The notes under the pieces: generated by a model | Database searches by the model: none | What the model saw: the letters and a program-made list of their open reading frames with translations, nothing else | What the model was told of the DNA's origin: nothing | Program-made: the position numbers and the translations under genes | NCBI GenBank assembly: GCA_964401865.1 | Contig: CAYNZZ010000006.1 | Location: 41,870-73,869 of the forward strand | Direction of reading: 5' to 3' | DNA from: an uncultured Erysipelotrichaceae bacterium | GTDB lineage: Bacteria > Bacillota_I > Bacilli_A > Erysipelotrichales > Erysipelotrichaceae | DNA: 32,000 nt | Shown: positions 2,933-26,812 of the stretch, piece after piece | Layout: the number at the start of each line of letters is the position of its first letter | Position numbering within the stretch: the stretch's first letter is position 1

Positions 2933-2960
2933 ATTAAACAACCACCAATCTAAATATTTA

Positions 2961-3000: not shown

Positions 3001-3008
3001 TTTATTTA

Positions 3009-12329: not shown

Positions 12330-13013
12330 CTATTTATTAATATCACTGGAAACGACCTTAGCATACTTGGAGAAGGTGTTTCTAGAGATATGATGCTTTC
12401 TTAAAAGTTCTGCAATGGAAATAGTCTTTTCACCAACATTCTGGCAAAGGTACTTCCTTATATCCTCTTTAAGTTCATCATTCATCTTATCTAAATGACC
12501 AATAGCTCTTCCTGGCTTTTTGTCAGAGGCAGCCATGCCATCTTTTGTACGCTTGGATAATGTCAATCTTTCCTGTTCTGCTCTATTGAGTTCAACAATC
12601 AGCAAAAGCTTAACAGTTGATTCTAAAGATACCTGCGCAACAAGATCCTGCTGCTCAGCAACACGAAGCAATTCTTTAATATACGCAGTAGAAACTGTTG
12701 GATTATCAATGAAGACAAGCTCTATGCCCTTCTTCATTAAACTCATGTATTTGTCATAACCATTAAGGGCTTCTCTTGTAAACCTTGAGATGTCTTTAAA
12801 GACGATGGTATCTCCAACTCTCGCCAATGCTTCCAGTTTTTGCCATTCTTTTCTGTTTTCAAAAGACTTGCCTGATTCATCTTCCATATAGCTTACAGAA
12901 TAGATGATGTTATTATCCCTGGCATACTGCTCTAAAGCTTTTTGCTGTCTGGCATACTTCTGTTTCTGTCTTTCTTCTTTTGTTGATATTCTCATGTAAG
13001 CAAAATAAGCCAT
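12330..13013 (-). CDS. small serine recombinase (resolvase/invertase family)
   Basis: N-terminal YMRISTKEERQKQ matches the catalytic Y-x-R-x-S-T motif. C-terminal HTH (ISIAELLRKHHISRNTFSKYAK). Length is 227 aa. Its ATG overlaps the TAA of the upstream gene (TAATG at 13011-13015). Confidence 0.8.
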   Translation of the reverse strand: MAYFAYMRISTKEERQKQKYARQQKALEQYARDNNIIYSVSYMEDESGKSFENRKEWQKLEALARVGDTIVFKDISRFTREALNGYDKYMSLMKKGIELVFIDNPTVSTAYIKELLRVAEQQDLVAQVSLESTVKLLLIVELNRAEQERLTLSKRTKDGMAASDKKPGRAIGHLDKMNDELKEDIRKYLCQNVGEKTISIAELLRKHHISRNTFSKYAKVVSSDINK

Positions 13014-13960
13014 TAGTCATGACCTCCCAGGAAATTCATGATCAATGTTACCATTGTTTCCTTCTCTTCTGGCCTGCTCTCTGCCACCATCAAAGTAATT
13101 GCCACTAAAGCACTATTAGAAATGACCTGGCTTCCATTTCTTCTTAATGCATTATTCTTATTTAAAAACTCAAGGAATATTGAAGCACCAATTCTCTTGC
13201 AGCCATCCGCAAAAGGGTGGTCCTTGATAAGGAAATAGAGAAGATTGGCAGCCTTCTCTTCAATGCTTGGATATACTTCCGTACCAAAGACATTCTGATA
13301 AACTGCTTCCAAAATACCATTCAGTTTGCCCTTCTCCTTTTCAACGCCAAATACATCAGAGTTAAACTTCATAGAATCAATCAGTTTTCTGCATTCCTCA
13401 TAGTTAAGACGATAAAGGGTATCATTGCCTTCTGGACGGTTTAAACTCTGATGATCATAGTCATCTAGAAGATCCAAGGCCTTTGTATATTCAATTACAA
13501 CCTTATAGACATCTTCCCCTTCAAACTCTAGTGCAGAAGCCAGCATCTTGGACTGAATCTCAATTGTCTTATTCAAAGACTCGAGTCTTTTCTCGTTGAT
13601 GGCATAACCCTTGAGAATGTAATCTTTCAAAACTGAACTTGCCCATCTTCTGAAGGCAATGCCCTGTTTTGACTTGACACGATATCCAACAGAAATGATC
13701 ATATCCAAGTTATAATGTTCTACCATTCGAGTTACGTCTCTTGTTCCTTCAGCTTGAACTGTCGCAAATTTTGCGACAGTTGAAAGTTCCGCCTCTTCCT
13801 TAAGAGCATTGTTGATATGTTTACCTATTGTTTTGATGTCTCTTCCGAATAATTGAGCCAACTGTTCACGATTTAGCCATACAGTTTCCTGCTTTGGATC
13901 AATCTGAACTTCTATTTCGAGTTCACCATCTTTATAAATAACTATTTCATTTCTATCCAT
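13013..13960 (-). CDS. RhuM-family N-terminal domain fused to a Doc/Fic-like domain
   Basis: RhuM signature VAKFATVQAEGTRDVTRMVEHYNLDMIISVGYRVKSKQGIAFRRWASSVLKDYILKGY. The C-terminal HPFADGCKR (13219..13193) resembles the Doc motif HxFx(D/N)(A/G)NKR, with Cys in place of Asn. Confidence 0.8.
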   Translation of the reverse strand: MDRNEIVIYKDGELEIEVQIDPKQETVWLNREQLAQLFGRDIKTIGKHINNALKEEAELSTVAKFATVQAEGTRDVTRMVEHYNLDMIISVGYRVKSKQGIAFRRWASSVLKDYILKGYAINEKRLESLNKTIEIQSKMLASALEFEGEDVYKVVIEYTKALDLLDDYDHQSLNRPEGNDTLYRLNYEECRKLIDSMKFNSDVFGVEKEKGKLNGILEAVYQNVFGTEVYPSIEEKAANLLYFLIKDHPFADGCKRIGASIFLEFLNKNNALRRNGSQVISNSALVAITLMVAESRPEEKETMVTLIMNFLGGHD

Positions 13961-14115: not shown

Positions 14116-14283
14116 TTTAGGCATTTTAAGCAACGTTTTGTGTTGGATGATGAGTATCATTAACTGAACGAATTTAACCGGTCAATTTTGGATCACTTTT
14201 CTCATTCTACAAAACGTTATGAAAATGAAACAGCATGCCATATCACGCCAATTCATTCCTTAGTCCAATCACAGATAAGTGTA

Positions 14284-14493
14284 TTATTGGTTTTCTGGAA
14301 GGACTTCCATAACATCATCTATACTACATTCAAAATGTTTGCATATTTTGACCATTACTTCCATAGATACAATTTCATTCTTGCCAAGTTTTGCTAGAGT
14401 AGGACCACTGATTCCAACTTGCTTTGCAAACTGTGTTTTGCTTAATCCTTTATCAACGAGAAGTTTAAACAGATTGTTGTATTTGACATCCAT
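14284..14493 (-). CDS. XRE/Cro-type helix-turn-helix regulator (69 aa), copy 2
   Basis: MDVKYNNLFKLLVDKGLSKTQFAKQVGISGPTLAKLGKNEIVSMEVMVKICKHFECSIDDVM is a typical short HTH_XRE protein. AGGAG RBS. The gene starts 11 nt after the DGQHR gene stop. Confidence 0.8.
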   Translation of the reverse strand: MDVKYNNLFKLLVDKGLSKTQFAKQVGISGPTLAKLGKNEIVSMEVMVKICKHFECSIDDVMEVLPENQ

Positions 14494-14504: not shown

Positions 14505-16811
14505 TTACAAAGTTAAAATGTTCATAATCCAGTCATAGATAGACTTAACATAGCTGTATTCATCAACAGGAACACTGTAGCTATCTTTTGCAAGCTTATT
14601 ATGGATAGAATTGACCTTAATAATCCAATCTGTCTTAACATCTTTTCCGCCTTTTAACTTTTCTTCTTCAGGGCGAACAAAGGTATCTTCGAAATGCATC
14701 GACCAGTTATTACCATTCAATAAGATTGGCTTACATTCAGAGAACGGAACATAATCCCAAATTGGAATTTCTACATCTTCACCATCATTGCTAATTAGCT
14801 CATACATAGCCTCATCAGCAAGACCTTTTGCCTTTGTATAGATGTTCTTCGGTACTCCTTTGACTAACCAACTATCTCCGTAATAGTCTTGCAATCTTTC
14901 GGAAATAATTGACTTTACCTTGCTTTCAATATCTTCAATCATTGCTTTAGTCTCGTCGTTGTAAATCTTCGTTTCATTTAACCAGTATTCCTCTAAACCA
15001 ACCGGTTTGAAATCCGGTCTAGCGTCAGCGATTGCCTTTTGATATGCTCTCCAGAACCTAGTGTCTGCTCCACCACCAAAATAACCTCTTAAGTCTTTCT
15101 TTTGTTCAGCAGTCATTTTATTGATATAGTCCGATAGTGGCTTTAGATAATAACTTATCAAACCGAACATATCGTCTGCATCTTGTTTCTTTGGTTCGAT
15201 CATTCCTTTGTCAACAAGCATGCACACAACATCATCCAACACCCTAATTACAGCTTGCATGCCTCTATTCATTGTCAACATACCACTGTCTTTATCGCCC
15301 TTGTCCCATTCATCCAGACATGCCTCTCTGAGGTATAAAAGGCATTTTTCTAGGAAAGGATAGAAAAGATCACACGTCTCTTGATTTTGCCCACAATCAA
15401 AAGTTCCTTCTTTTTGAAGGACATTCTTTTTGCCATATGTATTGAAGAAATTGCTTTTCTTTAATGCAACTTGGATAGCTTCAACAGTAATACATCTTTC
15501 AGGCGTTACTTCATTTTCACCTATTACAACTCTGCCATGTAAAGGAGATGTGGGTTCTTCGCCAAGCATCTGTGCAATTTTTGATCTTAGCGCCTGTCTC
15601 TGTTCACCTAAATCGCTCGATTCCCATAACATATCTGCATTCAATGTTACACGCAATGACTTCGGAACAGCTTTTTGGTTTTCATTGATATCCATGAACA
15701 GCTTTATTTGTTCTGTTCTTTCCAAATCAACAAATGCAACGACAGGTATCGTGTTAGTTGAGGCATATTTAGAATCTGAGTAACCATAAAGACGATGTTG
15801 CCCATCAATGATATACGCAGATCTATATCTCTTAGGAATATGTAAGACACCAATTTTAGATAAAGTTCCTTCTACTCTAGTAGATGATTGATCAAAAGTT
15901 AATCCCTTTCCGTTAGCGTCAATGCTGATGATGATTGAGTTTGGGAAATACCCTCCATTGTCAATAAATGATTTAACATCTTGTAATCTTTTCTTCTTAA
16001 TAATTCTTTGATAAGTAGGCATCATATTCTGGTTAGCTTCAGAGCGATGCAGCACATAGCCAATCTTTAATAATCTCTCCGGCTCAATCGAAAATGAGTA
16101 ATATGTATATCCACCCATTTTTCCTTGAATCGCAGGAACTCTGTCATCCATGTTTTTAATTTCCTGATTGGCAAATAGATTACCCAATAACTGGTATCTT
16201 GAACTTGAACCCAAATGTTTTGATAATTCTGAGTAGTACTCAACGGCAGAGTTATCAAAAAAGGTAATTCCATATTTATCAAGCTGAGCTAAGTCACGTC
16301 TATTTGTTATAAAGTTTCGTGATGCCCAGATAAATTTTATTTTTCTTCCTGGATATTGTTGGAGTATCTCCTTCCTCATGCCTTGTAGTTTGTTTCCGAA
16401 ATCATTTATTTCCTCATAGAAGCTCTTTTCAACGACAACATCAGAAGCTTTACATACAACTGCCAGTATTGTCTCGTCATCCGCTGCGATAATATCAATG
16501 TTTTCCTTTAATTTTGGATCATGAAAATCATAAGCAACCCTAACGCTTTCAAGAGAATTCATATTTGTAAAACCCATACTCAAAAAGAGTATCCATAGCT
16601 GATCTGTAAACTGTTCAATAGCTGGTTTTTCTTTTGAAACTGCAACAAACTTCGGATTCTTGAATTCCTTGGTTTTTTCCCAACCGAGGTCCACATATTT
16701 CGGAAGTTCAGATGCTAAGACCTTCTGGGTAACATCTTTCTTTTTTCTAGAATTCTTAATCGGCACTAAATCTTTTCCAGATACCATTACATCCCAATTA
16801 GTTCTTTCCAT
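14505..16811 (-). CDS. DGQHR-domain (DndB-like, ParB/Srx-fold) protein, 768 aa with extra N- and C-terminal regions
   Basis: YIIDGQHRLYGY is encoded at 15806..15792 (gat ggg caa cat cgt), followed by FMDINENQKAVPKSL. AAGGAGG RBS. The start overlaps the methylase stop by 14 nt. Confidence 0.75.
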   Translation of the reverse strand: MERTNWDVMVSGKDLVPIKNSRKKKDVTQKVLASELPKYVDLGWEKTKEFKNPKFVAVSKEKPAIEQFTDQLWILFLSMGFTNMNSLESVRVAYDFHDPKLKENIDIIAADDETILAVVCKASDVVVEKSFYEEINDFGNKLQGMRKEILQQYPGRKIKFIWASRNFITNRRDLAQLDKYGITFFDNSAVEYYSELSKHLGSSSRYQLLGNLFANQEIKNMDDRVPAIQGKMGGYTYYSFSIEPERLLKIGYVLHRSEANQNMMPTYQRIIKKKRLQDVKSFIDNGGYFPNSIIISIDANGKGLTFDQSSTRVEGTLSKIGVLHIPKRYRSAYIIDGQHRLYGYSDSKYASTNTIPVVAFVDLERTEQIKLFMDINENQKAVPKSLRVTLNADMLWESSDLGEQRQALRSKIAQMLGEEPTSPLHGRVVIGENEVTPERCITVEAIQVALKKSNFFNTYGKKNVLQKEGTFDCGQNQETCDLFYPFLEKCLLYLREACLDEWDKGDKDSGMLTMNRGMQAVIRVLDDVVCMLVDKGMIEPKKQDADDMFGLISYYLKPLSDYINKMTAEQKKDLRGYFGGGADTRFWRAYQKAIADARPDFKPVGLEEYWLNETKIYNDETKAMIEDIESKVKSIISERLQDYYGDSWLVKGVPKNIYTKAKGLADEAMYELISNDGEDVEIPIWDYVPFSECKPILLNGNNWSMHFEDTFVRPEEEKLKGGKDVKTDWIIKVNSIHNKLAKDSYSVPVDEYSYVKSIYDWIMNILTL

Positions 16812-17628
16812 CCTTTACCTCCTTCTCTGGTATGTTAGTGAATATGTATTCTTTTACTAACCCTCTTCTAGCGTTTCGGCCACCAATAACACTGTTTCTA
16901 TTTTCGACTATCAGTCTTCCTTTGCTTGCAAATATATCAACAATTGTTTCGTGTGCCGCATTTGTCATAATGTAGTACGCTCCAACGCTATTTATATGGT
17001 CAATTAATTCCCCTAACCTTCTTTGATCGTCCATTGAGAATAATTTAGCGTTGTATTGAAGAAAGCCGTTTTTTACTTCCGCAACAACATATGGAGGATC
17101 AAGAAACACCAAATCTCCTTTTTTTATATTCTTTTTTGAATCGGAAAAATCACCAGTACTAATTGTTGTGTTTTGTAGTTTACAACTTGCCCATTTTAAT
17201 TTATCTATGTCGTGTGTATAATTTCGATGCCCATACGGAACGTTGTATTTACCTTGACGATTGACGCGATATATTCCGTTAAACGACGTTGCGTTCAAGT
17301 AGATGAACTTTGCGGCTTTCTCACATAAAGTGTTTGGTTCAGATGATCGCATTGCATAATAGGCATCCTCTCCATTTTCATAGTTTTCTAAAACACCGGA
17401 AACACCATCTAAATCATCCCTTATTTGAACATAAGCATTAATTAAATCCTCATTTATATCAGATAAATACGCTTGCTTATCTCGCTCTAATGAAAAGAAA
17501 ATAGATGCACCACCTAAAAATGGTTCAATATAATTATTAAACTCCAATCCATCGATTAGTTCTTTCACAAAAGGGATCAGCCATTTTTTCCCTCCGGCCC
17601 AACGCAAAAAAGAATGATTATTCATCAT
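16798..17628 (-). CDS. Dam-family (D12 class) N6-adenine DNA methyltransferase
   Basis: N-terminal FLRWAGGKKWL and EPFLGGASIFF (AdoMet binding). The catalytic DPPY is encoded at 17100..17089. Length is 276 aa. Confidence 0.85.
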   Translation of the reverse strand: MMNNHSFLRWAGGKKWLIPFVKELIDGLEFNNYIEPFLGGASIFFSLERDKQAYLSDINEDLINAYVQIRDDLDGVSGVLENYENGEDAYYAMRSSEPNTLCEKAAKFIYLNATSFNGIYRVNRQGKYNVPYGHRNYTHDIDKLKWASCKLQNTTISTGDFSDSKKNIKKGDLVFLDPPYVVAEVKNGFLQYNAKLFSMDDQRRLGELIDHINSVGAYYIMTNAAHETIVDIFASKGRLIVENRNSVIGGRNARRGLVKEYIFTNIPEKEVKDGKN

Positions 17629-19211
17629 TAATACCCCCTTACTAACTCAAGCAGATAATACTTAGCCCTTGTGTAGGCTATGTAATTCATGTTATCGGTT
17701 GTACTTGGTGAATGTATATATACAACCATATCTGCTTCCAATCCTTTATATTCAAGAATTGATGCAACCCTGATTTCAGAACCAGAGGAAATTTTGTCAC
17801 CAACGAAAGACCATTTCGCAATGCCGTTCTTGTATTGTTCCATAAATTCTTCCTTATTATCAACAATCAAAATCATAGAAGAATTAGGCAAATGCTCATC
17901 GTCAATATACCTTTTAAACAGGATTTCTAAACGTTGAGTCATTAAATTATGACTGTTGATGGTTTCTGTTTGTGGTGTAGGACCTTCTACAGGGTTTGAT
18001 ACCATATCAGTACCTAAATTTGTTTTCTCTGCTGTCCAATTATAAATGTTGGATGTATTTCGTATATTTTCGTGAAGAAGGAATGGGGGAGTAGAAATTC
18101 CAAAACCCTCACCAAAACTATCCTGTCTTAATATCTGAACATCATCATAAAAAACTCCAAGAATAGATTTTTCACTATCTTTAAGAAGATGTTTTATTGT
18201 CTTTGCGCATTCTTCAGAAAAGTCCTGAGCCTCATCAACAAATATTGCATCGTATTTATTTAGGTCATTTTTTAGATTGCTATAAACCCCAATATAATAC
18301 GGGCCTTGCAGCATCTCAAAATCAGTTATTATTTCTTCAAATAACGACCTTATATCTCTTACCTCAACGCTATTCTCTGTTATTTCTCTTAAATATTCCG
18401 CAAGACATTTCGAAGCGCATAAGAAAAGTGTCTTTTTTCCAAAAGAAGCCTCTTTTTCGGCCATTTTCTTAGCAATCCATGTTTTCCCGGTTCCAGCTCC
18501 ACCTTTCATATAAAATTGGCGAATATTTTGGAGCAAATATACATAATTGTCTTGGACTCTATTTATTACGTTAAGTTGTTGGTCTTTGTATTGTACTAAA
18601 GCTCCTGCAGCAGCACTTATGGCCAATCGTTCTCTTACTAGTTCAAGAAAGGTTTTGTGTTGATTTGCAGGATAATACCAGCCGTATGGTTTCTTGTTGT
18701 AGAATTTAAAAATTCTTTTTATCTTACTGTAAAGGTTGTTTAAATCGTGTTGATCGATTGTAATCTCACGATGTCTATTATCTATTGCGTCTTCTTCGCC
18801 AATAGCGTGAAAAGGAAAGACCGCTGCAGCACCAAAAATGCCAGGGTAATCAATATAATTACGATTAGAATACTGATTTTTGAAATAATACATGCTTTCT
18901 TCTGCTTGATCATATGGAGATCTGTGTAGCTTTCTATCTCCATGAAGAGTATCCCCCACATACCAGACATTGTCTTTAATTGATAAATTACTGCCCCCCT
19001 TGACCTCTAAACAAAGAAAACCATATTCCGACGAAGTCACAACAAAATCCGATTCTGACTTAACAATCTTTCCATCTTTAATATCCGTCCATTTAACCGA
19101 ATAAAAAACTTCAAAAGAATCTGGCAATTGATTTTTCAATTCATAGTAAACTAATCTTTCCGAATCGGTTGGCATGTATTCTGCAATACTTTTGGGATAC
19201 ATAATAGCCAT
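17628..19211 (-). CDS. NERD nuclease-related domain fused to an SF1 (UvrD-like) helicase/ATPase
   Basis: NERD core SESDFVVTSSEYGFLCLEVKGG (D-x13-E-V-K, 19049..18999). Walker A GGAGTGKT, Walker B FVDEAQDF, and C-terminal EYKGLEADMVVYI plus AYTRAKYYL. Confidence 0.8.
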   Translation of the reverse strand: MAIMYPKSIAEYMPTDSERLVYYELKNQLPDSFEVFYSVKWTDIKDGKIVKSESDFVVTSSEYGFLCLEVKGGSNLSIKDNVWYVGDTLHGDRKLHRSPYDQAEESMYYFKNQYSNRNYIDYPGIFGAAAVFPFHAIGEEDAIDNRHREITIDQHDLNNLYSKIKRIFKFYNKKPYGWYYPANQHKTFLELVRERLAISAAAGALVQYKDQQLNVINRVQDNYVYLLQNIRQFYMKGGAGTGKTWIAKKMAEKEASFGKKTLFLCASKCLAEYLREITENSVEVRDIRSLFEEIITDFEMLQGPYYIGVYSNLKNDLNKYDAIFVDEAQDFSEECAKTIKHLLKDSEKSILGVFYDDVQILRQDSFGEGFGISTPPFLLHENIRNTSNIYNWTAEKTNLGTDMVSNPVEGPTPQTETINSHNLMTQRLEILFKRYIDDEHLPNSSMILIVDNKEEFMEQYKNGIAKWSFVGDKISSGSEIRVASILEYKGLEADMVVYIHSPSTTDNMNYIAYTRAKYYLLELVRGY

Positions 19212-19213
19212 AT

Positions 19214-21118
19214 TTACATCTCCCAGAAGCCAACTTTTATTTCTTTGGCTCCATCAATTGAATATAGATACTTTCTACCTAGTTCCAGATTAAAATGGTT
19301 ACATGAGATTTCAGGGAGAATAAGGCATGCGCTACATGCAGTATCGTCTCTTTCTGTGCAAATAGGATCAAAAACACAGTTCTTTGATTCGTCAAATGTT
19401 TTCTTTAAGTAATATAAATATCTCGATTCCGCCATGCCAGATAATGCACCTAATGGGATACCTTGGCTTGTCTGTGCATAAATAAAGATGCTAGCAGTTT
19501 CTACAATTATTATTTCGGTTAATGAATTGCTAGACAAACCACTTATTTCACCTGCAGATTCGATAAACGCATGTGACATAGAATGTAAAAGCGAATAAAC
19601 GTTTTTTGTAATTTCCTCGCTGTTATCGATGCTGCCAAACATCGGAATAGCATCACTATGAACATATTCTGCAAACCATTTCTTTACAGAGATTTCGTCA
19701 TCTAGATCTGGTACCATTTCTTCTCTGATGACACCATTTGCTAATAACCATTCAATGATTTTCCTTTGGTCAATCTCAAATAAAATACCTTCAGTATCTA
19801 ACCTAGAGCCAAAAACTAGATTAGTGTTTGAATTCTTGCTCCTGTCATATGCGTTTAGTTTCAACCTACAATTTTTATTAGTAGAATTGCTAGGATCAAC
19901 TGATCTTCTAGTATATCCATACGTACAATTTACGATTTGTGAGTCACAGGTAACTTGCATATTCTTGATACCAAGTTTTTTATTCATATCATACACTTCA
20001 TCCACAGAATCAATGAATTCCATATCCAATTGTCTCTGGATGGAGTCCTCTAAAGTGATGACTCGTTTAGCATCTTTTATCGTGTTGTATTGCATCAACT
20101 TAAAAGAGAAATTATTGATCCATTCATTATATGCGTTCGGATCATCTGATTTTCTTTTAGAAAATAGTTCATCACATGCAGTGACATAACGTTCAACACC
20201 TTTATCATTGGATTTGGTTTTCATTATCTGTGCAACCGTTTCATCAAATTTCTCAGGTGCAATAAGTCCAATAGCGATCAACCCATTAGCTTGATTTTCA
20301 GCCTCTTTTCTTACTGACTCGTCTTTATATTCGTCGCTAAAAGCAAGCTCAACATTATTTAATATGAAATCAAAATTTGATGGCGTAATTTTGTCGAACC
20401 ATTTAGATACTAAAACTTTTTGGGCGTCTAATCCTTTTTCATAAAACTTTCCACTTTGTGTATCAACTAGATTAATAATTCTTAATGTGAATGGTTTGTA
20501 ATTCTTTCCTGAGCTAGCATTATCTGGACGTAGATGTGAATTACAATTCGGACAAACTTGGATAAATTCAGCTGTTTTTTCACTATTCCCATTTCTATAT
20601 ATCATCTTATATGGGTTATCATTTGGACGATATTTGAAATCTTTGACATTTTTAACATAGGGAATCTTGATTGGCTGGGCATAGCCACATTCGCATGTAT
20701 AAATCATCTGTAGCTGCTTAACAGAATTCTTTTTGCATTCTGGACATCTCCATGTATATTTATCAACAGCGCCTGCACTTTTCTTTTCAAACGCGGTTCC
20801 GCATGAACCGCAATAAAAAACCAAAGGCGAAATTTCTCCCATAATATCTGGAGTGTTTTCAATACAAGCGGTCTCTACTATTTCAAATGATGGGGTGTTT
20901 TCTTGCAAATTGAATGCGGATATATCACCATTTCTATTCTCAAACAATCTTATTTGTCGCTTGATTTCACTGTCTATGAACTTGTCGTAAATGCCTTCCA
21001 TCTTTCTATAATTCCAATTTTTGATCTTGGCAGTTACCACTTCACTTGTATCATTCCTCTCAGAGATCCACATTTCCGGAAGGAATCTATATACTGCCTG
21101 ATTTTTGCTTCTTTTCAT
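19214..21118 (-). CDS. DUF1998-like zinc-ribbon protein (DrmB-like)
   Basis: C-terminal cluster C-x5-C-x7-CSAC-x7-C-N..L.L.R (19378..19301) fits the DUF1998 pattern as I recall it from MrfA/DrmB. There are extra CxxC ribbons (CGSCG...CPECK, CPNCN). Length is 634 aa. It sits directly downstream of an SF2 helicase. Confidence 0.65.
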   Translation of the reverse strand: MKRSKNQAVYRFLPEMWISERNDTSEVVTAKIKNWNYRKMEGIYDKFIDSEIKRQIRLFENRNGDISAFNLQENTPSFEIVETACIENTPDIMGEISPLVFYCGSCGTAFEKKSAGAVDKYTWRCPECKKNSVKQLQMIYTCECGYAQPIKIPYVKNVKDFKYRPNDNPYKMIYRNGNSEKTAEFIQVCPNCNSHLRPDNASSGKNYKPFTLRIINLVDTQSGKFYEKGLDAQKVLVSKWFDKITPSNFDFILNNVELAFSDEYKDESVRKEAENQANGLIAIGLIAPEKFDETVAQIMKTKSNDKGVERYVTACDELFSKRKSDDPNAYNEWINNFSFKLMQYNTIKDAKRVITLEDSIQRQLDMEFIDSVDEVYDMNKKLGIKNMQVTCDSQIVNCTYGYTRRSVDPSNSTNKNCRLKLNAYDRSKNSNTNLVFGSRLDTEGILFEIDQRKIIEWLLANGVIREEMVPDLDDEISVKKWFAEYVHSDAIPMFGSIDNSEEITKNVYSLLHSMSHAFIESAGEISGLSSNSLTEIIIVETASIFIYAQTSQGIPLGALSGMAESRYLYYLKKTFDESKNCVFDPICTERDDTACSACLILPEISCNHFNLELGRKYLYSIDGAKEIKVGFWEM

Positions 21119-21128: not shown

Positions 21129-24100
21129 TTAATTTATTTTTATTTCAATCTGTTCTTCTGTGTCTCTCAAACTTCTCATTGGTTTCTTATTGCCTTTTGA
21201 GAATTTTGCGATTACATCTGATAGGAACTCATCTTTAGTGAAATTTCCTGTCTGAATACCAGTAAGAATATTAGTCGCTTCTTCATTAATTATTTCTGCA
21301 TAAGCAATAGACAATTTTTCCTGGCTATTACATCCATAAATTCCAATTAACTTTTCAACCACATCATCAACTCTGATTTTTCCATCGGCAAGTAACTTCT
21401 TGACTTTTGTTGCAAAGTATAAATTATCTTCGCCAGTCAAAACCGTATAATACTGCATCAATAAACCAGATAATAGGCCCGGCAATGTACTGTAAATAGC
21501 ATTTTTTGCCCATCTATTAATCGGAACTGACTCTACTAAATCATCTTTATTCTGGTGGAACACGACGAAATTCTTGAGGTATGACCTATCTCTTACTCTC
21601 ATTAGTCTGATGATATCTATAACAATTCCGGTGTACTTTCTGCCAGTTCTTGAATACGCCTGGATATACTCGGCATTATTATTTGGCATTCCAAAGAAAT
21701 ACATAATGTTAAAAGAATCTTCATCAACACCATGCGAAATAGTGCTTGTTGCCAACAACAAATTGGTGCTTTCAACATTCTTTCGATTAGCTTGAATATT
21801 AAACAGCGTTTGTCGAACAGATTGGAAGTCCGTGTCACTTGTCATCTGACTAATTACAAATTTAGGAACATTTTTGGCCTCTAGGAAGTTATTGCCCTGA
21901 TTCTGAAATGCATTTTCCAATTCCATGGCATCTTGTTTCCTGTTGTTATAAACAAGCTCAATCCAGTAATCAAACAGCTTTTCTTTAAGTTCTTCTTCTG
22001 AACCATTAAATCCTTTTTCCTGTAAATCTTTTAATACAGAATTTGTATTCTTCATCATGTAATGGATTAATAGCCTCATAAAATAAACCGATTCCCACAT
22101 TCCATCAGTGATTGAACGACCATATGGAGCATATCCTAACAAGATTCTTGAAATATCGTTTCCGTCGGTGTAGGAATAAAAATCTTCATCTGATTTTGTT
22201 GACGGATATTCACAAGGGAATCTTCTTCCCTGCATATGATACAGGTTGAGAATATGATCTTTGTACATGGAAATTGTTGCCGTAGCACCTATAAAACGAA
22301 TCTGTTTCTGTTGACTCTTAGGAACAAGATTTTTTGCATAATAACTCATAAATGACTCGTAATGCGAATCGAAAGTACCTAAGCTTTCCTTAACAAGATG
22401 CATTTCATCCTGAATAAATAATGTTGGAATAGGATCCTTTAGAACGCCCACATCTTCTAAGGCGTCTCTGTTTAAACAACTTGAGCACGTACATTTTCCA
22501 GTGGCAGAAAAGCCATGAATCTTACACTTTTTCTTTACTTGTCCAAAAAGCATTTTGAATTCATTGGTCGTGCCTAACATAGCCATCTTGTCAATCGTAC
22601 TAACCACAATAGATGGCAAATAACGATAGATTTCGCTATCCACAATAAGCAACGGTAACACTCCTGCTTTACAGTCAGGATTGTCACAAACATGTTCTAG
22701 TTTCCACGTACTCTTGTTAAATCGAACATTAACCATTTTTTTGCCACAGCACGGGCATGTATCGATAAATCTATAATATTCATTTAACGTATCTTGATCG
22801 CTCTCAAGAATTAAGTTTGTGTCTTTGCCAGCGCCTCTATCGCTTAATTTCTCATGTTCGTTAATTCTGTTTGGTGTGTTTTCTTTGCCCACAAAGAAAC
22901 CAACAGAAAATGGATTTGTCAGAGACAAATCGCTGTTATCCTTAACGATATTTGCTTTCATTACGATGTTTAATACTCTGTCTAACTGTTGAACCGCCAA
23001 TAAACGCAAAGGATACTTAAGAATTGCTGTGATTCCTTCGTCTTTGCCTCTTAAACGATCGAAGAACATAGCGAAAACGCTTATGCCCAAGAATGCCTCT
23101 GTCTTTCCGCCACCTGTTGGGAAATATAAAAGATTTGCGATTTCATTATCAGCTTCTTTTATAGTCGTATCATCTTTATATTCACTTCGTATGATTTCAC
23201 AAATCATCGATACTATAAATACTATCTGGAATAAACGCCATCCAACTATTGGCCTTTGATTATTGCCGAGCTTGGTCATAAAGGTTTGGTTGGTAAATAC
23301 AAACGCACGTTTTACATAATCTTTGTACTTAATCTGATCAATACCCTTTCTGAAACGTTTAATTTCTCTTTGGTATTCCTCTAACGACTCTTTGAACTTT
23401 GCTTTGGCTGCAGGCGATAATGTATGAGTATTCTTAAATTCTTTTTCACACTCGTTATAGTCAGATATCATCTCATCATATATAAAAGTCAAATTTGTAA
23501 CTGGATCTTCTATAAGTTTTTCGAACAGGACATACTTGTTTAAAGAATCTTTGGTTTTTAACCTCATCTGATAATACTTAGGAACATTATCTGTGCTGAT
23601 TGAATTACTCGCCTTGTCAAAAAATGCGGATGTATTCTCTGCAATAGCATAAACAGGATTTCTAGCTTTATAACTAGATTTAAAATAGTCTAACTCGATT
23701 TCGTTGAATATAATGCTGTCATTTCCGACAATTTTCATTCCAGCATTAAATACGCTAGGTAAATATCCAATATTCTTTCTGGAATCAATAGGCGTTTTAT
23801 TAACCATCTGTAAAAGGAATCTATATTTATCTCCTTCTTCAAAAAAAGTACAATAAATATCAATGGTCCACCTAGGACTAACTTTTTCATTTTTTATTGC
23901 GGTGCGAAGTTTGAATACTTCTTCACTCATCAAGTCACCAAAATGAACACGATCAGTCTGCATTATGCAAATTTCGTCGCTAATTTGATTGGATAGAGCC
24001 AGTAGTTTTTCAGTGATATTCGCCTCTAAATGAAATGATTTGTTTTTTAATTCTGCTAAATTAATCTCTATTCCGTCCCCCATTGTTTCTTCGATAGAGA

Positions 24101-24524
24101 TTTTTTTATACGTTAATGGTAAATAAAAGTATTCTTCTGGATAAACATCGGCTAATTGATTTATATCTTTATACTGAATATTATCCTTTTCAGTATATTT
24201 TTGAACAACAAAATCTATCGTTTTCTTATAATCTGGTTTGACAGTGTAGAAAAGAGAGCCTTTTGGAATAACTTTTAACACTCCGCTTTCATTTTTATTT
24301 ACCAAAAATGAAAGACTCATTGATGGCACACTTTCGAAACGAGTGTTGTTGTTTTCGACATATCCTCCAGAAAAACTTTCATCTACCCTGTTTTCTGCTA
24401 GCATGCCTACCATGACTCTCTTTTCAAGATCATCATCAACGAAAGTGCCATTAATGTCATCACCAGATACTCTCTCTATGTATTTAGAAACAATATAATC
24501 CGCTAATATTGCATAATCATTCAT
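21129..24524 (-). CDS. large SF2 DExH helicase (DrmA-like), 1131 aa
   Basis: Motif I FPTGGGKTEAF (23114..23100). Motif Ia YPLRLLAVQQ. Motif II IQDEMH (22409..22398). Motif III GATAT. Motifs V and VI are ATSTISHGVD and QAYSRTGR. Inserted Cys ribbons CPCCGKK...CDNPDCK. The N-terminal ~460 aa are unassigned. Confidence 0.75.
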   Translation of the reverse strand: MNDYAILADYIVSKYIERVSGDDINGTFVDDDLEKRVMVGMLAENRVDESFSGGYVENNNTRFESVPSMSLSFLVNKNESGVLKVIPKGSLFYTVKPDYKKTIDFVVQKYTEKDNIQYKDINQLADVYPEEYFYLPLTYKKISIEETMGDGIEINLAELKNKSFHLEANITEKLLALSNQISDEICIMQTDRVHFGDLMSEEVFKLRTAIKNEKVSPRWTIDIYCTFFEEGDKYRFLLQMVNKTPIDSRKNIGYLPSVFNAGMKIVGNDSIIFNEIELDYFKSSYKARNPVYAIAENTSAFFDKASNSISTDNVPKYYQMRLKTKDSLNKYVLFEKLIEDPVTNLTFIYDEMISDYNECEKEFKNTHTLSPAAKAKFKESLEEYQREIKRFRKGIDQIKYKDYVKRAFVFTNQTFMTKLGNNQRPIVGWRLFQIVFIVSMICEIIRSEYKDDTTIKEADNEIANLLYFPTGGGKTEAFLGISVFAMFFDRLRGKDEGITAILKYPLRLLAVQQLDRVLNIVMKANIVKDNSDLSLTNPFSVGFFVGKENTPNRINEHEKLSDRGAGKDTNLILESDQDTLNEYYRFIDTCPCCGKKMVNVRFNKSTWKLEHVCDNPDCKAGVLPLLIVDSEIYRYLPSIVVSTIDKMAMLGTTNEFKMLFGQVKKKCKIHGFSATGKCTCSSCLNRDALEDVGVLKDPIPTLFIQDEMHLVKESLGTFDSHYESFMSYYAKNLVPKSQQKQIRFIGATATISMYKDHILNLYHMQGRRFPCEYPSTKSDEDFYSYTDGNDISRILLGYAPYGRSITDGMWESVYFMRLLIHYMMKNTNSVLKDLQEKGFNGSEEELKEKLFDYWIELVYNNRKQDAMELENAFQNQGNNFLEAKNVPKFVISQMTSDTDFQSVRQTLFNIQANRKNVESTNLLLATSTISHGVDEDSFNIMYFFGMPNNNAEYIQAYSRTGRKYTGIVIDIIRLMRVRDRSYLKNFVVFHQNKDDLVESVPINRWAKNAIYSTLPGLLSGLLMQYYTVLTGEDNLYFATKVKKLLADGKIRVDDVVEKLIGIYGCNSQEKLSIAYAEIINEEATNILTGIQTGNFTKDEFLSDVIAKFSKGNKKPMRSLRDTEEQIEIKIN

Positions 24525-24536: not shown

Positions 24537-26480
24537 CTACTTTTTTAAAATCTCCTCCATTGGAGAACCTTCATCTAAATCGCTTAGCACATACAATACA
24601 TCCCTCGCTCTTGAACATGCTGTATACATCGATCTCATTTGACTTTGGAATTTTGATTGATATTCATCATCCATTTTTCGAATCGCTTCCCATGACTTAA
24701 TCTTTTTTTGTTTGCCCTCATCAGAGAATACAAAATTGTATGGATATAACCCCGCAAAAATTACCGCCTTAAAATCTAATCCAAGTGATGAATCTATTGT
24801 TGTGAGAACAACGCCGTTAGTGTCAGAAAATTTTTTCTTACCTGGCGCCTGCGTAATAATGGAGTAAGGTATTCCTTTTTCATTTAAAAGAGCTTCCATC
24901 CAGTTCATGAAAAAGTACATTACTCTTTTGTGCTGCTTGTATGGAAAAATAACAGCGATATCAGAATACGGAATCTTATGCTTATTGGTGATTTCTGTAA
25001 TTGCTGTAGCAACTTCCTGTTTTATATTGTTTCTGTCAATACCTGTTTTAATTTTTAAGGCCGTTGTCGGATTGCTGCCAATTTTGAACGTATTGTATTC
25101 ATATTCCATTGAATCAATTAGGCCTAACATGCTTAACCTTTTATTCATTAAACTCAACATAGATTTGATGTATTCACCAATAGCTTGACTATTACGATAA
25201 TTCTTTTCTATGTATTTAACTCTGCCTGTAAAATCTAGCTTTGTCCCAGCAATCTTTTTCCACGGGGCGTCCCCTTTTCTACTTAATGCTCTTACCGCTT
25301 GGTTCAAATCTCCAGCCATTAAAAATAAGCTGTCTTCTTCTTTTTCTAGTAATAGATAACAGAGTTCTAAGTATAAAGGGTCAAAGATTTGCACTTCATC
25401 AATCAAGATTGCCTTAAAACTCAATTGGATCTTTCCCAGCTTGACTGCTTCGATACACTTTTGTATTTCTTCCTCACTGGCGATGTTACTCTCTAAATTA
25501 ACCCCTAAACACTCCTGATAAATTTTCTTTACCAATTTATGGAATGTCATAATATACAAATTATTATTGTCTCCAAAATTTGCGCAACTTCTTTTGAATA
25601 GATATGAGTCTGCTAGATTATTGTTGTAGCAAGTTAATAGAACCCTTGATTCCTTATACATACTTGCGTATTTATACGCTTTTGAAAGAAGTAACACGCT
25701 CTTCCCTGCTCCTGGATTAGCCAGAATTACCCTGTGGCCTCTTCCCGTGTCGTTAACCTGCGAAACTTGGTATTCATCTAGAAAAAATGTTTTATACTCC
25801 AACTCTCTTCCGGTAATTTTTAATGCATCTTCAGATAGGAATCTTTTCTTGTTTTCAATCTTGGCATTTTCTAATTCAGTCATTACAACTGTATACTCTG
25901 GGGCTAAACGTTCAAAAATAGCCTTACATTCAAGCTCTGACAATGACGAAAAATCGCTATCATATCCTTTTCTAAAATTCGTAAATATTCTCAAATCTGC
26001 AAGAATCCGCGCCTTTCCTTTGATGTTGGTCGGTTGGAAGAATCCTAATGCTACAAAACCACTGAGATTCTCTTTTTGATCTTGCGATAACTTAATCGTT
26101 TCTAAACGTTCCTCAGGAAACAAAAAAATGTGCTTATATGGGAATTTTAAAGACTTATATTCACCTTGACGAACAATGAGCAATTTAGAGTCAAGCAGTC
26201 TTTCATAAATTTTATCTTCAACAAATTTGACACCTTGCTTGTACGCTTCGATATAATCAGGCGATAAATTCCCATTCTTTATTGAGAAGGTAACCAATCC
26301 TTCAGAAGTGGAAATGTAAAAGCCCATTTTTACATCTTTGCTGCTCATACCCAGCGGATCAATATCGACAGCAAAATGGCCACTTTTAAAATTAGCAGCC
26401 GCTTTTCTTAATAAAGCTTTTTCTGCTTTTGTAATGTGGTCTTTTCTTTCGTAATCTTGTGGCCATAATCGAACCGCCAT
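24537..26480 (-). CDS. SF1 (UvrD-like) helicase/ATPase with a degenerate NERD-like N-terminus
   Basis: Walker A NPGAGKSVLL, Walker B LIDEVQIFD, then NYRNS, SSLGLDFKAVIFAG and YTACSRARDVLYV. The start is moved from the TTG at 26489 to ATG 26480, which lies 9 nt after the AGGAG RBS. Confidence 0.75.
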   Translation of the reverse strand: MAVRLWPQDYERKDHITKAEKALLRKAAANFKSGHFAVDIDPLGMSSKDVKMGFYISTSEGLVTFSIKNGNLSPDYIEAYKQGVKFVEDKIYERLLDSKLLIVRQGEYKSLKFPYKHIFLFPEERLETIKLSQDQKENLSGFVALGFFQPTNIKGKARILADLRIFTNFRKGYDSDFSSLSELECKAIFERLAPEYTVVMTELENAKIENKKRFLSEDALKITGRELEYKTFFLDEYQVSQVNDTGRGHRVILANPGAGKSVLLLSKAYKYASMYKESRVLLTCYNNNLADSYLFKRSCANFGDNNNLYIMTFHKLVKKIYQECLGVNLESNIASEEEIQKCIEAVKLGKIQLSFKAILIDEVQIFDPLYLELCYLLLEKEEDSLFLMAGDLNQAVRALSRKGDAPWKKIAGTKLDFTGRVKYIEKNYRNSQAIGEYIKSMLSLMNKRLSMLGLIDSMEYEYNTFKIGSNPTTALKIKTGIDRNNIKQEVATAITEITNKHKIPYSDIAVIFPYKQHKRVMYFFMNWMEALLNEKGIPYSIITQAPGKKKFSDTNGVVLTTIDSSLGLDFKAVIFAGLYPYNFVFSDEGKQKKIKSWEAIRKMDDEYQSKFQSQMRSMYTACSRARDVLYVLSDLDEGSPMEEILKK

Positions 26481-26492
26481 ATCGCTCAACTC

Positions 26493-26696: not shown

Positions 26697-26729
26697 ATTT
26701 CTCTCCATTGTTGTATTAATTCTAACACA

Positions 26730-26812
26730 AACGCTAATGGATATTAAGCGAATGCTAATATATTACGCCAATATATTAATTTTTCTCAATAGTTCACATT
26801 AATCGCCAATAC
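26730..26812 (-). promoter_or_regulatory. putative operon promoter with repeated TATTGGCG / ATTAGC motifs
   Basis: Read on the minus strand: TTGAGA (26789..26784), an 18-nt spacer, then TAATAT (26765..26760). TATTGGCG occurs twice (26811..26804 and 26773..26766). ATTAGC(A/G) occurs twice in the leader. Confidence 0.3.

What the first reader, a model, noticed from the sequence alone, without database searches (positions are those of the whole stretch)
14505..17628. Dam-type methylase translationally coupled to an oversized DndB-like DGQHR protein with no dnd genes
The methylase stop overlaps the DGQHR gene start by 14 nt. DGQHR/DndB proteins are known from DNA phosphorothioation (dnd) clusters as ParB/Srx-fold regulators. 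No dndA/C/D/E-like genes are in the window. At 768 aa the protein is about twice the size I recall for DndB. It has an extra ~230-aa N-terminal region (including NIDIIAADDETILAVVCK, vaguely PD-(D/E)xK-like) and a ~300-aa C-terminal extension. ParB-like domains fused or coupled to methylases are known from phages. This pairing may form a modification or readout sub-module.
Basis: partly seen in the sequence, partly recalled or inferred. Interest (0 to 1): 0.65.

Follow-up and report, generated by a model that had tools for sequence, protein, structure and literature searches.

The report
Dam methylase with DGQHR partner in DISARM-like operon
A DNA adenine methylase and a large three-domain "DGQHR" protein form a gene pair conserved across many bacteria, probably an uncharacterised restriction-modification-like defence unit; here it sits at the end of a DISARM-like helicase operon and its nuclease motifs are lost, so it probably marks or senses DNA rather than cutting it.

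Summary
A D12/Dam methylase (16798-17628, minus strand) overlaps a 768-aa DGQHR protein (14505-16811) by 14 nt, and no dnd genes are present.

1. The pair is the 3' end of one tightly packed minus-strand operon: UvrD-like, DrmA-like, DrmB-like, NERD-helicase, Dam, DGQHR, HTH. This is a non-canonical relative of DISARM, with no PLD DrmC and no DrmMI/MII.
2. The long DGQHR protein belongs to a large unnamed family. It has 500 or more 50%-identity clusters, and nearly all of the best 150 matches are about 760 aa. Its architecture is a PD-(D/E)xK nuclease (Card1/NucS-like), a DndB/DpdB-type ParB-fold NTPase core and a probable Swt1-like HEPN domain.
3. A DpnM-like Dam is adjacent in essentially every assessable locus, down to 27% identity and even where gene order is reversed. 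Flanking genes are otherwise not conserved, and the DrmAB module accompanies one clade only.

Every stand-alone pair keeps at least one intact nuclease motif. Thirteen of the 14 full-length DrmAB-linked copies, including this one (E119 to V; HEPN Rx4H lost), keep neither. The DGQHR, QR and FxxxN motifs and the NERD D..ExK motif remain intact.

Best reading: an ancestral two-gene R-M-like unit was captured by a DISARM-type operon as its self-marking and NTP-gated sensing module. This is a new variant of a known kind, of moderate interest.

The parts
16798..17628 (-). Dam-family (D12 class, DpnM-like) N6-adenine DNA methyltransferase, 276 aa, with a DPPY catalytic motif. Its start overlaps the stop of the NERD-helicase by 1 nt.
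   Evidence: PF02086 1.4e-46; TIGR00571 190 bits against a cutoff of 114.85. The closest solved structure is DpnM 2dpm at 4.1e-43. The NFNG(I/L)YRVN..NVPYG DNA-contact loop is conserved.
14505..16811 (-). 768-aa long DGQHR protein with three domains. It overlaps Dam by 14 nt.
   Evidence: Full-length AF2 model: pLDDT 82.7.
16167..16631 (-). N-terminal PD-(D/E)xK nuclease-fold domain (residues about 61-215). The catalytic triad is degenerate here: D106, V119 in place of E, and K121.
   Evidence: Foldseek matches to Cdn1, Card1, VC1899, AF1548, NucS/EndoMS and Can2. Card1_endonuc, Hjc and NERD Pfam hits occur in 17, 16 and 9 of 41 family members.
15222..16142 (-). DGQHR (DndB/DpdB-type ParB/Srx-fold) NTPase core, residues 224-530. 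It carries the QR pair (268-269), DGQHR (336-340, nt 15792-15806) and FxxxN (372-376).
   Evidence: TIGR03187 7.5e-49; DpdB 4.7e-23; DndB 3.3e-10. The motifs are invariant in a 41-sequence alignment. This is the most conserved domain: 89% identity in the crown clade and 64-66% to the most distant clades.
14508..15011 (-). C-terminal helical domain (residues 601-768), probably a Swt1-like HEPN. The Rx4H motif is lost here (IHNKLAKD at 14577-14615).
   Evidence: HEPN_Swt1 is sub-threshold but recurrent: 17 of 41 members, best 5.8e-5, covering HMM positions 7-105 of 115. PADLOC PDC-M34B gives 4.4e-6. The RNxNxH motif is intact in the Bacteroidota-type and L037 clades. The fold search was inconclusive.
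17628..19211 (-). NERD (PD-(D/E)xK) + SF1 helicase, 527 aa. The D..E-V-K motif is intact. This is the likely nuclease effector of the operon.
   Evidence: PF08378 4.7e-8; PADLOC RTasNERD-Hel 1.8e-45. The motif SE.DF..//..CLEVKGG is conserved in all DrmAB-linked loci.
19214..21118 (-). DrmB-like (DUF1998-type) protein, 634 aa.
   Evidence: PADLOC DrmB 9e-48. NF038324 scores 78 bits, below its cutoff of 240.
21129..24524 (-). DrmA-like SF2 helicase, 1131 aa.
   Evidence: PADLOC DrmA 2.6e-136. NF038325 scores 346.9 bits, below its cutoff of 950.
24537..26489 (-). UvrD-like SF1 helicase, 650 aa, with an unassigned N-terminal domain. It is the first gene of the operon.
   Evidence: PF00580 8.6e-10; PADLOC NERD+UvrD model 3.2e-19. 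It is co-conserved with the other genes.
14284..14493 (-). 69-aa Cro/C1-type HTH, 11 nt after the DGQHR stop. It is a possible controller and is not conserved in sister loci.
   Evidence: PF13443 1.4e-15. It is absent downstream of DGQHR in L001-L013.
26719..26789 (-). Two promoter-like sites upstream of the first gene. These are consensus matches only.
14231..14250 (-). Terminator-like hairpin just after the HTH gene. This is a consensus match only.

Best explanation
The Dam / long-DGQHR pair is a functionally coupled, vertically co-inherited two-gene unit. In most genomes it stands alone as a restriction-modification-like defence cassette. A DpnM-like Dam, very probably GATC-specific, marks host DNA. 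The roughly 760-aa partner couples a DndB/DpdB-type ParB-fold NTP-binding switch to two nuclease modules (PD-(D/E)xK and Swt1-like HEPN) and acts on unmarked DNA.

In the lineage of this window the pair was captured at the 3' end of a DISARM-branch operon (UvrD-like, DrmA, DrmB, NERD-helicase). That operon has no methylase and no PLD nuclease of its own. After capture, the catalytic residues of both nuclease domains in the DGQHR protein decayed, while the NTP-binding motifs stayed invariant.

Here, therefore, Dam supplies the self mark. The DGQHR protein most likely works as a non-cleaving, NTP-gated DNA or methylation-state sensor or loader, or as a Dam cofactor or regulator. Cutting is left to the NERD-helicase, assisted by DrmAB and the UvrD-like motor.

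What is shown: gene arrangement, domain content, conservation of the pairing, monophyly of the operon-linked clade and the pattern of motif loss. What is inferred: the defence function, GATC specificity, the direction of capture and the sensor role.
For: Operon structure:
- Gaps and overlaps between the seven genes run from -14 to +12 nt.
- The six-gene order is conserved in 15 or more loci at 60-78% identity.

Conservation of the pair:
- Dam is adjacent in essentially all assessable loci of 47 genome loci spanning Bacillota, Bacteroidota, Melainabacteria and Actinomycetota.
- L048 has a divergent D12 methyltransferase upstream.
- L040, L054 and L055 have Dam downstream of DGQHR.
- Outside the DrmAB clade only Dam and DGQHR are conserved among 454 neighbouring ORFs.
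- The Dam and DGQHR neighbour-joining trees are broadly congruent.

Domain evidence:
- The family is large and keeps the full-length architecture.
- The N-terminal domain is a PD-(D/E)xK fold.
- E...D...ExK is intact in almost all stand-alone copies.
- HEPN Rx4H is intact in the Bacteroidota-type and L037 clades.

Motif-loss pattern:
- On the tree, every stand-alone locus keeps at least one nuclease motif, whereas 13 of 14 DrmAB-linked loci keep neither. L015, one of the two earliest-branching DrmAB-linked loci, still has D-E-K.
- DGQHR, QR and FxxxN are invariant, and the core is the most conserved domain.
- The NERD D..EVK motif is invariant in the linked helicase.

Dam specificity:
- Dam is closest to DpnM, with an identical DNA-contact loop across the family.
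- L047 has R.DpnII between the Dam-like gene and DGQHR.

Precedents for DGQHR proteins partnering DNA-modification enzymes:
- DpdB ATPase is required for DpdA (PMC10164549).
- DndB is proposed as a negative regulator in Dnd systems (PMC3632139; PMC4507180; PMC12839542).
- A DndB-like protein binds ATP and GTP (bioRxiv 10.1101/2025.10.10.680097).
Against: - There is no experimental evidence for defence, methylation specificity, NTPase activity or nuclease activity in any family member.
- No published description was found in the searchable library.
- The HEPN assignment is sub-threshold in Pfam, and the fold search of the C-terminal domain was not significant.
- The window's copy retains D106 and K121, so residual nuclease activity cannot be excluded.
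- The direction of evolution (capture of the pair by DrmAB, rather than loss of DrmAB elsewhere) rests on a midpoint-rooted NJ tree of about 45 sequences.
- The motif-loss correlation traces to essentially one evolutionary event (one clade), so it is suggestive rather than statistical.
- Loss of nuclease motifs also occurs singly in some stand-alone clades (L031, L037-L043).
Confidence: 0.5

Rival explanations
1. The DGQHR protein is purely a modification-side factor. It would be a DpdB-like ATPase that helps Dam act on DNA, or a DndB-like negative regulator that limits Dam expression or activity. On this reading it has no restriction or sensing role, either here or in stand-alone pairs.
For: - Both characterised or studied DGQHR proteins sit on the modification side (PMC10164549, PMC4507180).
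- The best specific HMM hits are DpdB (4.7e-23 and 1.9e-24; 41 of 41 members).
- The gene is always adjacent to, and often overlaps, the methyltransferase gene.
- The NTPase motifs are invariant, whereas the nuclease motifs can be lost without loss of the gene.
Against: - Stand-alone copies keep canonical PD-(D/E)xK and/or HEPN catalytic residues across phyla. This is unexpected for a mere cofactor or repressor.
- From general knowledge, DpnM/Dam-type enzymes are active alone and need no ATPase.
- A Dam plus a regulator, with no effector, would not explain the defence-island-like, variable neighbourhoods.
Confidence: 0.2
2. The locus holds two independent systems that merely sit side by side in a defence island: a Dam/DGQHR R-M-like pair and a separate DrmAB/NERD/UvrD helicase system. 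There is no functional integration. The DGQHR protein here is simply a decaying restriction gene next to a still useful methylase.
For: - The pair is autonomous in most genomes.
- Defence genes cluster (general knowledge).
- The nuclease motifs are degenerate in this clade, as expected for a dying restriction gene.
- Decayed versions exist: L014 has a deletion fusing a UvrD fragment to DGQHR residues 150-768, and L046 is fragmented and reads DGQHQ.
Against: - The junction between the NERD-helicase stop and the Dam start overlaps by 1 nt.
- The six-gene order and spacing are conserved in 15 or more species-level loci at 60-78% identity.
- The helicase module has no methylase of its own, although in DISARM (Ofir et al. 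2018, recalled) a methyltransferase is part of the system.
- The full-length 768-aa ORF is kept intact, with 89% identity in the DGQHR core and invariant NTP motifs. This indicates purifying selection rather than decay.
Confidence: 0.15
3. The pair is an abortive-infection or toxin-antitoxin-like unit. The DGQHR protein would be a latent HEPN RNase / PD-(D/E)xK toxin that is held inactive while Dam keeps DNA methylated, and that kills the cell when methylation fails or phage DNA appears.
For: - HEPN domains linked to R-M operons are proposed second-line suicidal effectors (PMC3710099; PMC3632139).
- The architecture combines two nuclease types.
Against: - This cannot apply to this window, where both catalytic motifs are lost.
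- The Firmicutes stand-alone clade lacks the HEPN motif altogether.
Confidence: 0.1

Closest known systems
DISARM (DrmA/DrmB/DrmC with DrmMI or DrmMII; Ofir et al. 2018, recalled; described in PMC12458937)
   Same: - The helicase (DrmA-like) and DUF1998-type (DrmB-like) genes are split, which is characteristic of the DISARM branch.
- A DNA methyltransferase lies in the same operon.
- Extra helicases are present.
- PADLOC DrmA and DrmB hits are 2.6e-136 and 9e-48.
   Different: - There is no PLD nuclease DrmC, no SNF2 DrmD and no DrmE.
- The methylase is a small D12/Dam enzyme rather than the PglX-like DrmMI or C5 DrmMII.
- NCBIfam scores fall far below the DISARM cutoffs.
- A NERD-helicase, a UvrD-like helicase and a DGQHR protein take the accessory positions.
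DpdB (the ATPase of the Dpd 7-deazaguanine DNA modification system; PMC10164549)
   Same: - The DGQHR/ParB-fold core is shared, and DpdB gives the best specific HMM similarity.
- Both are encoded next to the DNA-modifying enzyme, in a system that also contains DISARM-related helicases (PMC12458937).
   Different: - It scores 81.7 bits against a cutoff of 300.
- No dpdA, dpdC or preQ0 genes are present.
- It is twice the length, with N-terminal PD-(D/E)xK and C-terminal HEPN-like domains.
- Its partner is a methyltransferase rather than a transglycosylase.
DndB (proposed negative regulator in the phosphorothioation Dnd system; PMC4507180, PMC3632139)
   Same: - The DGQHR motif and PF14072 N-terminal half are shared.
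- DndB itself is described as ParB-like + HEPN (PMC3632139).
   Different: - TIGR03233 scores 39.6 bits against a cutoff of 328.
- There are no dndA, dndC, dndD or dndE genes.
- An extra nuclease-fold domain is present.
- It is paired with Dam.
GmrSD / SspE / BrxU-type enzymes (DUF262 ParB-like NTPase fused to a nuclease; PMC4619093)
   Same: - The design logic is the same: a ParB/Srx-fold NTPase with a DGQ(Q/H)R motif fused to a nuclease domain and tied to the DNA modification state.
- In SspE (recalled) the NTPase senses the host's own modification.
   Different: - The nuclease domains are PD-(D/E)xK and HEPN rather than DUF1524/HNH.
- Only 4 of 41 members give weak GmrSD_N hits.
- The partner modification is m6A by Dam.
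DpnII-type Type II R-M (DpnM + R.DpnII)
   Same: - The methylase is DpnM-like (4.1e-43 to 2dpm).
- The layout is two genes, a methyltransferase and a putative nuclease.
- One relative (L047) even carries R.DpnII between the two genes.
   Different: - The partner is an unrelated 768-aa multidomain NTPase-containing protein rather than the roughly 290-aa R.DpnII.

Membership tests
DGQHR domain proteins (TIGR03187) | Score above the curated cutoff, with the QR pair, DGQHR pentapeptide and FxxxN motifs present. | tested here: met
   166.9 bits against a cutoff of 58.85. Q268-R269, D336-R340, F372 and N376 are invariant in the 41-sequence alignment. The motif was translated.
DndB (TIGR03233 equivalog) | Score at or above 328 bits with a full-length match. 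| tested here: not met
   39.6 bits, covering only model positions 4-167 of 355.
DndB (TIGR03233 equivalog) | Genomic association with dndA, dndC, dndD and dndE. | tested here: not met
   No Dnd hits among the ORFs of the window that were profiled.
DpdB (NF041060 equivalog) | Score at or above 300 bits. | tested here: not met
   81.7 bits.
DpdB (NF041060 equivalog) | Association with dpdA (TGT-like) and dpdC. | tested here: not met
   None found in the window. The neighbour is a D12 methyltransferase in all loci.
Dam family methyltransferase (TIGR00571 / PF02086) | Score above cutoff, with the DPPY catalytic motif and FxGxG SAM motif. | tested here: met
   190.2 bits against a cutoff of 114.85. 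The alignment to DpnM and E. coli Dam shows the EPFLGGASIF and FLDPPY motifs.
Dam family methyltransferase (TIGR00571 / PF02086) | GATC specificity. | not testable with these tools
   This is inferred only. The DNA-contact loop is identical to that of DpnM. It needs SMRT or ONT methylome data.
DISARM | A DrmA helicase and a separate DrmB (DUF1998) gene. | tested here: inconclusive
   PADLOC DrmA 2.6e-136 and DrmB 9e-48. NCBIfam scores are 346.9 against a cutoff of 950 and 78 against a cutoff of 240, both below cutoff.
DISARM | DrmC PLD-family nuclease. | tested here: not met
   No PLD domain in any ORF of the operon or its flanks. Some relatives have a PLD-helicase-DUF3427 gene further downstream.
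DISARM | Class-defining methylase (DrmMI N6-adenine, PglX-like, or DrmMII C5) together with DrmD or DrmE. | tested here: not met
   The methylase is a 276-aa D12/Dam enzyme. No SNF2 DrmD or DrmE hits were found.
Type II restriction-modification system | An adjacent cognate methyltransferase and an endonuclease with an intact catalytic site. | tested here: inconclusive
   The methyltransferase criterion is met. The partner's PD-(D/E)xK triad is intact in stand-alone relatives but reads D-V-K in the window. Activity was not tested.
PD-(D/E)xK nuclease fold (Card1/NucS-like) | Structural match, plus E...D...ExK catalytic residues. | tested here: inconclusive
   The fold criterion is met: Foldseek probability is about 1.0 to Cdn1, AF1548 and Card1, with E-values from 3e-3 to 2e-2. 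The catalytic E119 is replaced by V in the window.
HEPN (Swt1-like, PF18731) | Score above the gathering cutoff, and an Rx4-6H motif. | tested here: inconclusive
   The best family member scores 23.8 bits against a cutoff of 27.5, and 17 of 41 members hit. RNxNxH is present in distant clades but absent in the window. The fold search gave E = 0.8 to Swt1.

The most novel reading that the evidence does not exclude
The DGQHR protein is a ParB-type, NTP-gated DNA clamp or switch that reads the Dam methylation state and licenses a DISARM-type helicase/NERD nuclease machine. In its ancestral stand-alone form the same switch directly controls its own PD-(D/E)xK and HEPN nucleases. That form would be a previously unrecognised, widespread class of NTP-dependent, GATC-methylation-guided restriction system. 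The window's clade would then be a natural example of an effector being converted into a dedicated sensor after fusion of two defence systems.
Probability: 0.25. Interest if true: 0.75.

Novelty: new variant of a known kind. Interest (0 to 1): 0.55.

Why it matters
If the reading is right, it has four consequences.

1. A family with hundreds of 50%-identity clusters is currently annotated only as 'DGQHR domain protein' or, wrongly, as 'DndB'. It would gain a role as the effector or sensor of a simple Dam-linked defence cassette common in gut Bacillota and Bacteroidota.
2. It would add a third kind of DNA-modification partner for DGQHR ParB-fold NTPases: methylation, beside phosphorothioation and 7-deazaguanine.
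3. It would extend the known accessory repertoire of DISARM-branch operons. How modified self DNA is distinguished from foreign DNA is still unclear for these systems.
4. The stepwise loss of nuclease residues after joining a helicase operon offers a tractable natural experiment on how defence modules merge and divide labour.

Tried and rejected
- **PDB sequence search.** A 41-sequence family profile gave no hit at E <= 1.
- **Fold search of the C-terminal domain.** The isolated domain model has pLDDT 89.5, but nothing was significant. The Swt1 C-terminal domain came third at E = 0.8. The HEPN call therefore rests on sequence motifs only.
- **PADLOC scans.** Scans of the window protein and of 41 family members found no named system beyond DpdB, DndB and PDC-M34B domain-level hits.
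- **Literature.** Searches for DGQHR, DndB-like + methyltransferase, DrmA + DrmB + DndB, DISARM + DUF1998 + NERD, DpdB + DISARM, and ParB-like + HEPN + Dam found no description of this pair or operon.
- **Phage origin.** Considered and rejected. There were only 4 full-length matches in the viral collection.
- **Membership of the dnd or dpd systems.** Considered and rejected on scores and context.
- **Third homologue search (DrmB).** It returned only the same clade at 69-100% identity. It did not show what other partners this DrmAB lineage has.
- **GATC counts.** 80 observed against 113 +/- 9 expected. The depletion is mild and not diagnostic.
- **Failed scripts.** One script call got no reply and one failed on a file name. 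Both were repeated.


Full report
**Observation**

Dam lies at 16798-17628 and a 768-aa ORF at 14505-16811, both on the minus strand, sharing 14 nt. A strong ribosome-binding site (AGAAGGAGGT) precedes the ATG at 16811.

Dam is a bona fide D12/Dam-family enzyme. It matches PF02086 at 1.4e-46 and scores 190 bits on TIGR00571 against a cutoff of 114.85. Its nearest solved relative is DpnM, and the FxGxG and DPPY motifs are present.

The large ORF passes the DGQHR-domain model TIGR03187 with 166.9 bits against a cutoff of 58.85, over residues 227-528. It fails the DndB equivalog (39.6 against 328) and the DpdB equivalog (81.7 against 300). No dnd or dpd modification genes were found among the window's ORFs.

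The pair is the downstream end of one tightly packed minus-strand operon. Inter-gene spacing runs from a 14-nt overlap to a 12-nt gap. The genes in order are:
- UvrD-like helicase, 24537-26489
- DrmA-like helicase, 21129-24524
- DrmB-like protein, 19214-21118
- NERD + SF1 helicase, 17628-19211, whose stop overlaps the Dam start by 1 nt
- Dam
- DGQHR protein
- a 69-aa HTH, 14284-14493

Promoter-like sites lie upstream of the first gene and a terminator-like hairpin follows the HTH gene. Both are consensus matches only.

PADLOC models call DrmA (2.6e-136) and DrmB (9e-48). The NCBIfam DISARM cutoffs are not reached, and there is no PLD DrmC, no DrmD or DrmE, and no DrmMI or DrmMII. According to a recent survey of YprA-family helicases, DISARM is the only branch in which the helicase and DUF1998 genes are consistently split, and it typically carries a PLD nuclease. 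That survey does not mention DGQHR or Dam partners (PMC12458937).

**The DGQHR protein family**

The long form is not a one-off. Word-indexed searches gave 4181 and 3261 clusters at E <= 1e-5 from two distant queries, and the best hits were all about 760 aa. An exhaustive phmmer search against 1.84 billion representatives gave 2108 hits at E <= 1e-3 and 500 at E <= 1e-30. The best 150 are almost all 745-790 aa and align end to end.

Scanning 41 diverse members against Pfam gave DndB in 40, Card1_endonuc in 17, HEPN_Swt1 in 17, Hjc in 16 and NERD in 9. The nuclease hits fall at residues about 90-160 and the HEPN hits at about 620-750.

An AlphaFold2 model (pLDDT 82.7) shows four regions: an N-terminal alpha/beta region, a ParB-like alpha/beta core, and two helical regions. 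Foldseek against the PDB returned PD-(D/E)xK nucleases (Cdn1, AF1548, Card1, VC1899, NucS/EndoMS, Can2, McrC) and a ParB N-terminal domain. The C-terminal domain modelled alone (pLDDT 89.5) gave no significant fold match, and the Swt1 C-terminal domain ranked third at E = 0.8. HEPN therefore remains probable rather than shown.

The architecture is PD-(D/E)xK nuclease, then DGQHR ParB-fold NTPase, then a helical region, then a Swt1-like HEPN. This fits earlier computational notes that ParB/DGQHR/DUF262 domains are often fused to PD-(D/E)xK, HNH or HEPN nucleases and linked to R-M systems (PMC3632139; PMC3710099).

**Is the pairing conserved?**

A scan of one genome per species returned 47 loci from Bacillota, Bacteroidota, Melainabacteria and Actinomycetota, at 33-79% identity. 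tblastn with the window's proteins found Dam immediately upstream on the same strand in nearly all of them. The exceptions are explained as follows:
- L041 starts at a contig edge.
- L024 and L014 are fragments or deletions.
- L048 has a divergent D12 methylase upstream.
- L040, and the viral-collection loci L054 and L055 (27-28% identity), have Dam downstream instead.

Clustering 454 neighbouring ORFs from 27 loci that lack DrmAB showed that only Dam and the DGQHR protein are conserved. The Dam and DGQHR neighbour-joining trees are broadly congruent. The pair is an autonomous, co-inherited two-gene cassette.

The DrmA / DrmB / NERD-helicase / UvrD-like set accompanies only one monophyletic clade, at 60% identity or more to the window.

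**Nuclease motifs track the context**

Stand-alone copies almost always show the canonical E...D...ExK pattern (FED ... QQIDV ... VECK). Bacteroidota-type copies and the L037 clade also have an intact HEPN RNxNxH motif.

Each stand-alone locus keeps at least one of the two motifs:
- Firmicutes stand-alone copies keep PD-(D/E)xK only.
- The L037-L043 clade keeps HEPN only.
- Most Bacteroidota copies keep both.

Within the DrmAB-linked clade the pattern is different. L015, one of the two earliest-branching members, still has D-E-K, L013 has D-E-H, L016 has D-N-R and the window has D-V-K. The crown group has S/G/C at the D position, V/L/S at the E position and H/Q at the K position. None of the clade has the HEPN motif.

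In contrast, the QR, DGQHR and FxxxN motifs are invariant. The DGQHR core is the best conserved part, at 89% identity in the crown clade and 64-66% to the most distant clades. The nuclease-fold domain shows 59% and 29-39% respectively. The NERD domain of the adjacent helicase keeps D...E-V-K in every linked locus.

This pattern is what one expects if the effector role moved to the helicase-nuclease genes while the NTPase core kept an essential role. It stems from essentially one clade, so it is suggestive and not a statistical proof.

**The methylase**

The DNA-contact loop (S/N)FNG(I/L)YRVN...NVPYG is almost invariant across all partner Dams. It matches DpnM and the E. coli Dam positions equivalent to R124, N126 and P134 (residue roles recalled from the Dam-DNA structure literature). 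In L047 an R.DpnII gene (PF04556, 5.4e-95) sits between a Dam-like gene and the DGQHR gene. GATC specificity is therefore likely but unproven. GATC is mildly depleted in the window, at 80 observed against 113 +/- 9 expected.

**Mechanism**

Known DGQHR proteins act with DNA-modifying enzymes. DpdB is an ATPase required for DpdA-catalysed base exchange (PMC10164549). DndB is regarded as a negative regulator in the phosphorothioation system (PMC4507180, PMC3632139, PMC12839542). A DndB-like protein binds ATP and GTP (bioRxiv 10.1101/2025.10.10.680097). DUF262 relatives such as GmrSD couple the same fold to nucleases (PMC4619093).

I therefore favour the following, at about 0.5 confidence:
- In stand-alone cassettes, Dam marks self DNA and the DGQHR protein is an NTP-gated nuclease acting on unmarked DNA.
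- In this window, Dam is the self-marking enzyme of a DISARM-like machine. The catalytically degenerate DGQHR protein acts as an NTP-dependent sensor or loader, or as a Dam cofactor. The NERD-helicase does the cutting.

Three rivals remain:
- a purely modification-side cofactor or regulator (0.2)
- two independent neighbouring systems (0.15)
- an abortive-infection toxin (0.1)

**Comparison and novelty**

The locus works like an R-M/DISARM hybrid but is not a canonical member of DISARM, Dnd or Dpd, because tested defining features are not met. I found no paper describing the Dam + long-DGQHR pair or this operon, and PADLOC 2.0 has no system model for it.

The components and the general fusion logic are known, so I rate it a new variant of a known kind. 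Interest is moderate (0.55). It is a widespread, cleanly defined and experimentally tractable candidate, and the domain-decay story is attractive, but it is not categorically new.

Noticed in passing
window 12330-13960 (-): Directly downstream of the operon lie a RhuM/Fic-DOC protein (PADLOC candidate PDC-S23, 1.8e-129) and a serine recombinase/resolvase. The two genes overlap by 1 nt. This suggests the whole block sits on or next to a mobile or defence island.
   Followed up: partly
window 29290-30681 (+): A 463-aa protein combines Schlafen AlbA_2, a HATPase_c_4 (RecG C-terminal-like) domain and a winged HTH. It lies in a low-GC stretch (26-29% GC at 27-30 kb). It may be another defence-related or regulatory gene bordering the island.
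   Followed up: no
window 2168-9266 (-): A 2085-aa repetitive surface protein with a C-terminal membrane anchor is followed by a sortase gene. This is typical Gram-positive host content and unrelated to the finding.
   Followed up: no
L047 6579-10391: In a Chitinophagaceae MAG a DpnII restriction endonuclease gene (PF04556, 5.4e-95) sits between a Dam-like methylase and the long DGQHR gene. The DGQHR protein thus coexists with a classical GATC restriction enzyme.
   Followed up: partly
L014 515-3481; L046 whole locus: These are decayed versions of the operon. L014 has a deletion joining a UvrD-like fragment (residues 4-371) directly to DGQHR residues 150-768, with DrmA, DrmB, NERD and Dam all missing. 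L046 shows only fragmentary matches to all six genes and reads DGQHQ in place of DGQHR.
   Followed up: partly
L031 5872-7020; L041 2288-3436; L033 12310-13419; L032 7249-8862: Several Bacteroidota loci carry a second, short (369-537 aa, DndB-sized) DGQHR paralogue within a few kb of the long one.
   Followed up: no
L001-L003 13355-16516; L017 14300-17464; L018 12813-16007: A roughly 1050-aa PLD + SF2 helicase + DUF3427 gene recurs a short distance downstream of the DGQHR gene. It appears in a DrmAB-linked locus (after a WYL gene) and in two stand-alone Paenibacillus loci. It could be a recurrent partner or simply a defence-island neighbour.
   Followed up: partly
L026 12417-16350; L027 12274-16229; L030 12315-16265: A three-gene set abuts the pair in three unrelated genomes: a calcineurin-like phosphoesterase with a wHTH, an ORC-CDC6-like ATPase (PF24389, 4e-89) and an unannotated gene of about 315 aa.
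   Followed up: partly
window 14284-14493 (-): The 69-aa HTH at the operon's end best matches the VanU regulator model (6.8e-20, below cutoff). It is not found at this position in sister operons, where a WYL-domain gene or a transposase follows instead. L014 has a 46%-identical HTH upstream of its UvrD-like fragment.
   Followed up: partly
window, whole: GATC occurs 80 times against 113 +/- 9 expected from dinucleotide-preserving shuffles. This is mild avoidance of the probable Dam target.
   Followed up: partly
window 24537-26489 (-), residues 1-230: The N-terminal 230 or so residues of the UvrD-like helicase are well conserved among sister loci (for example the GHxxVxIDPLG motif). They match no Pfam, NCBIfam or PADLOC model.
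   Followed up: no
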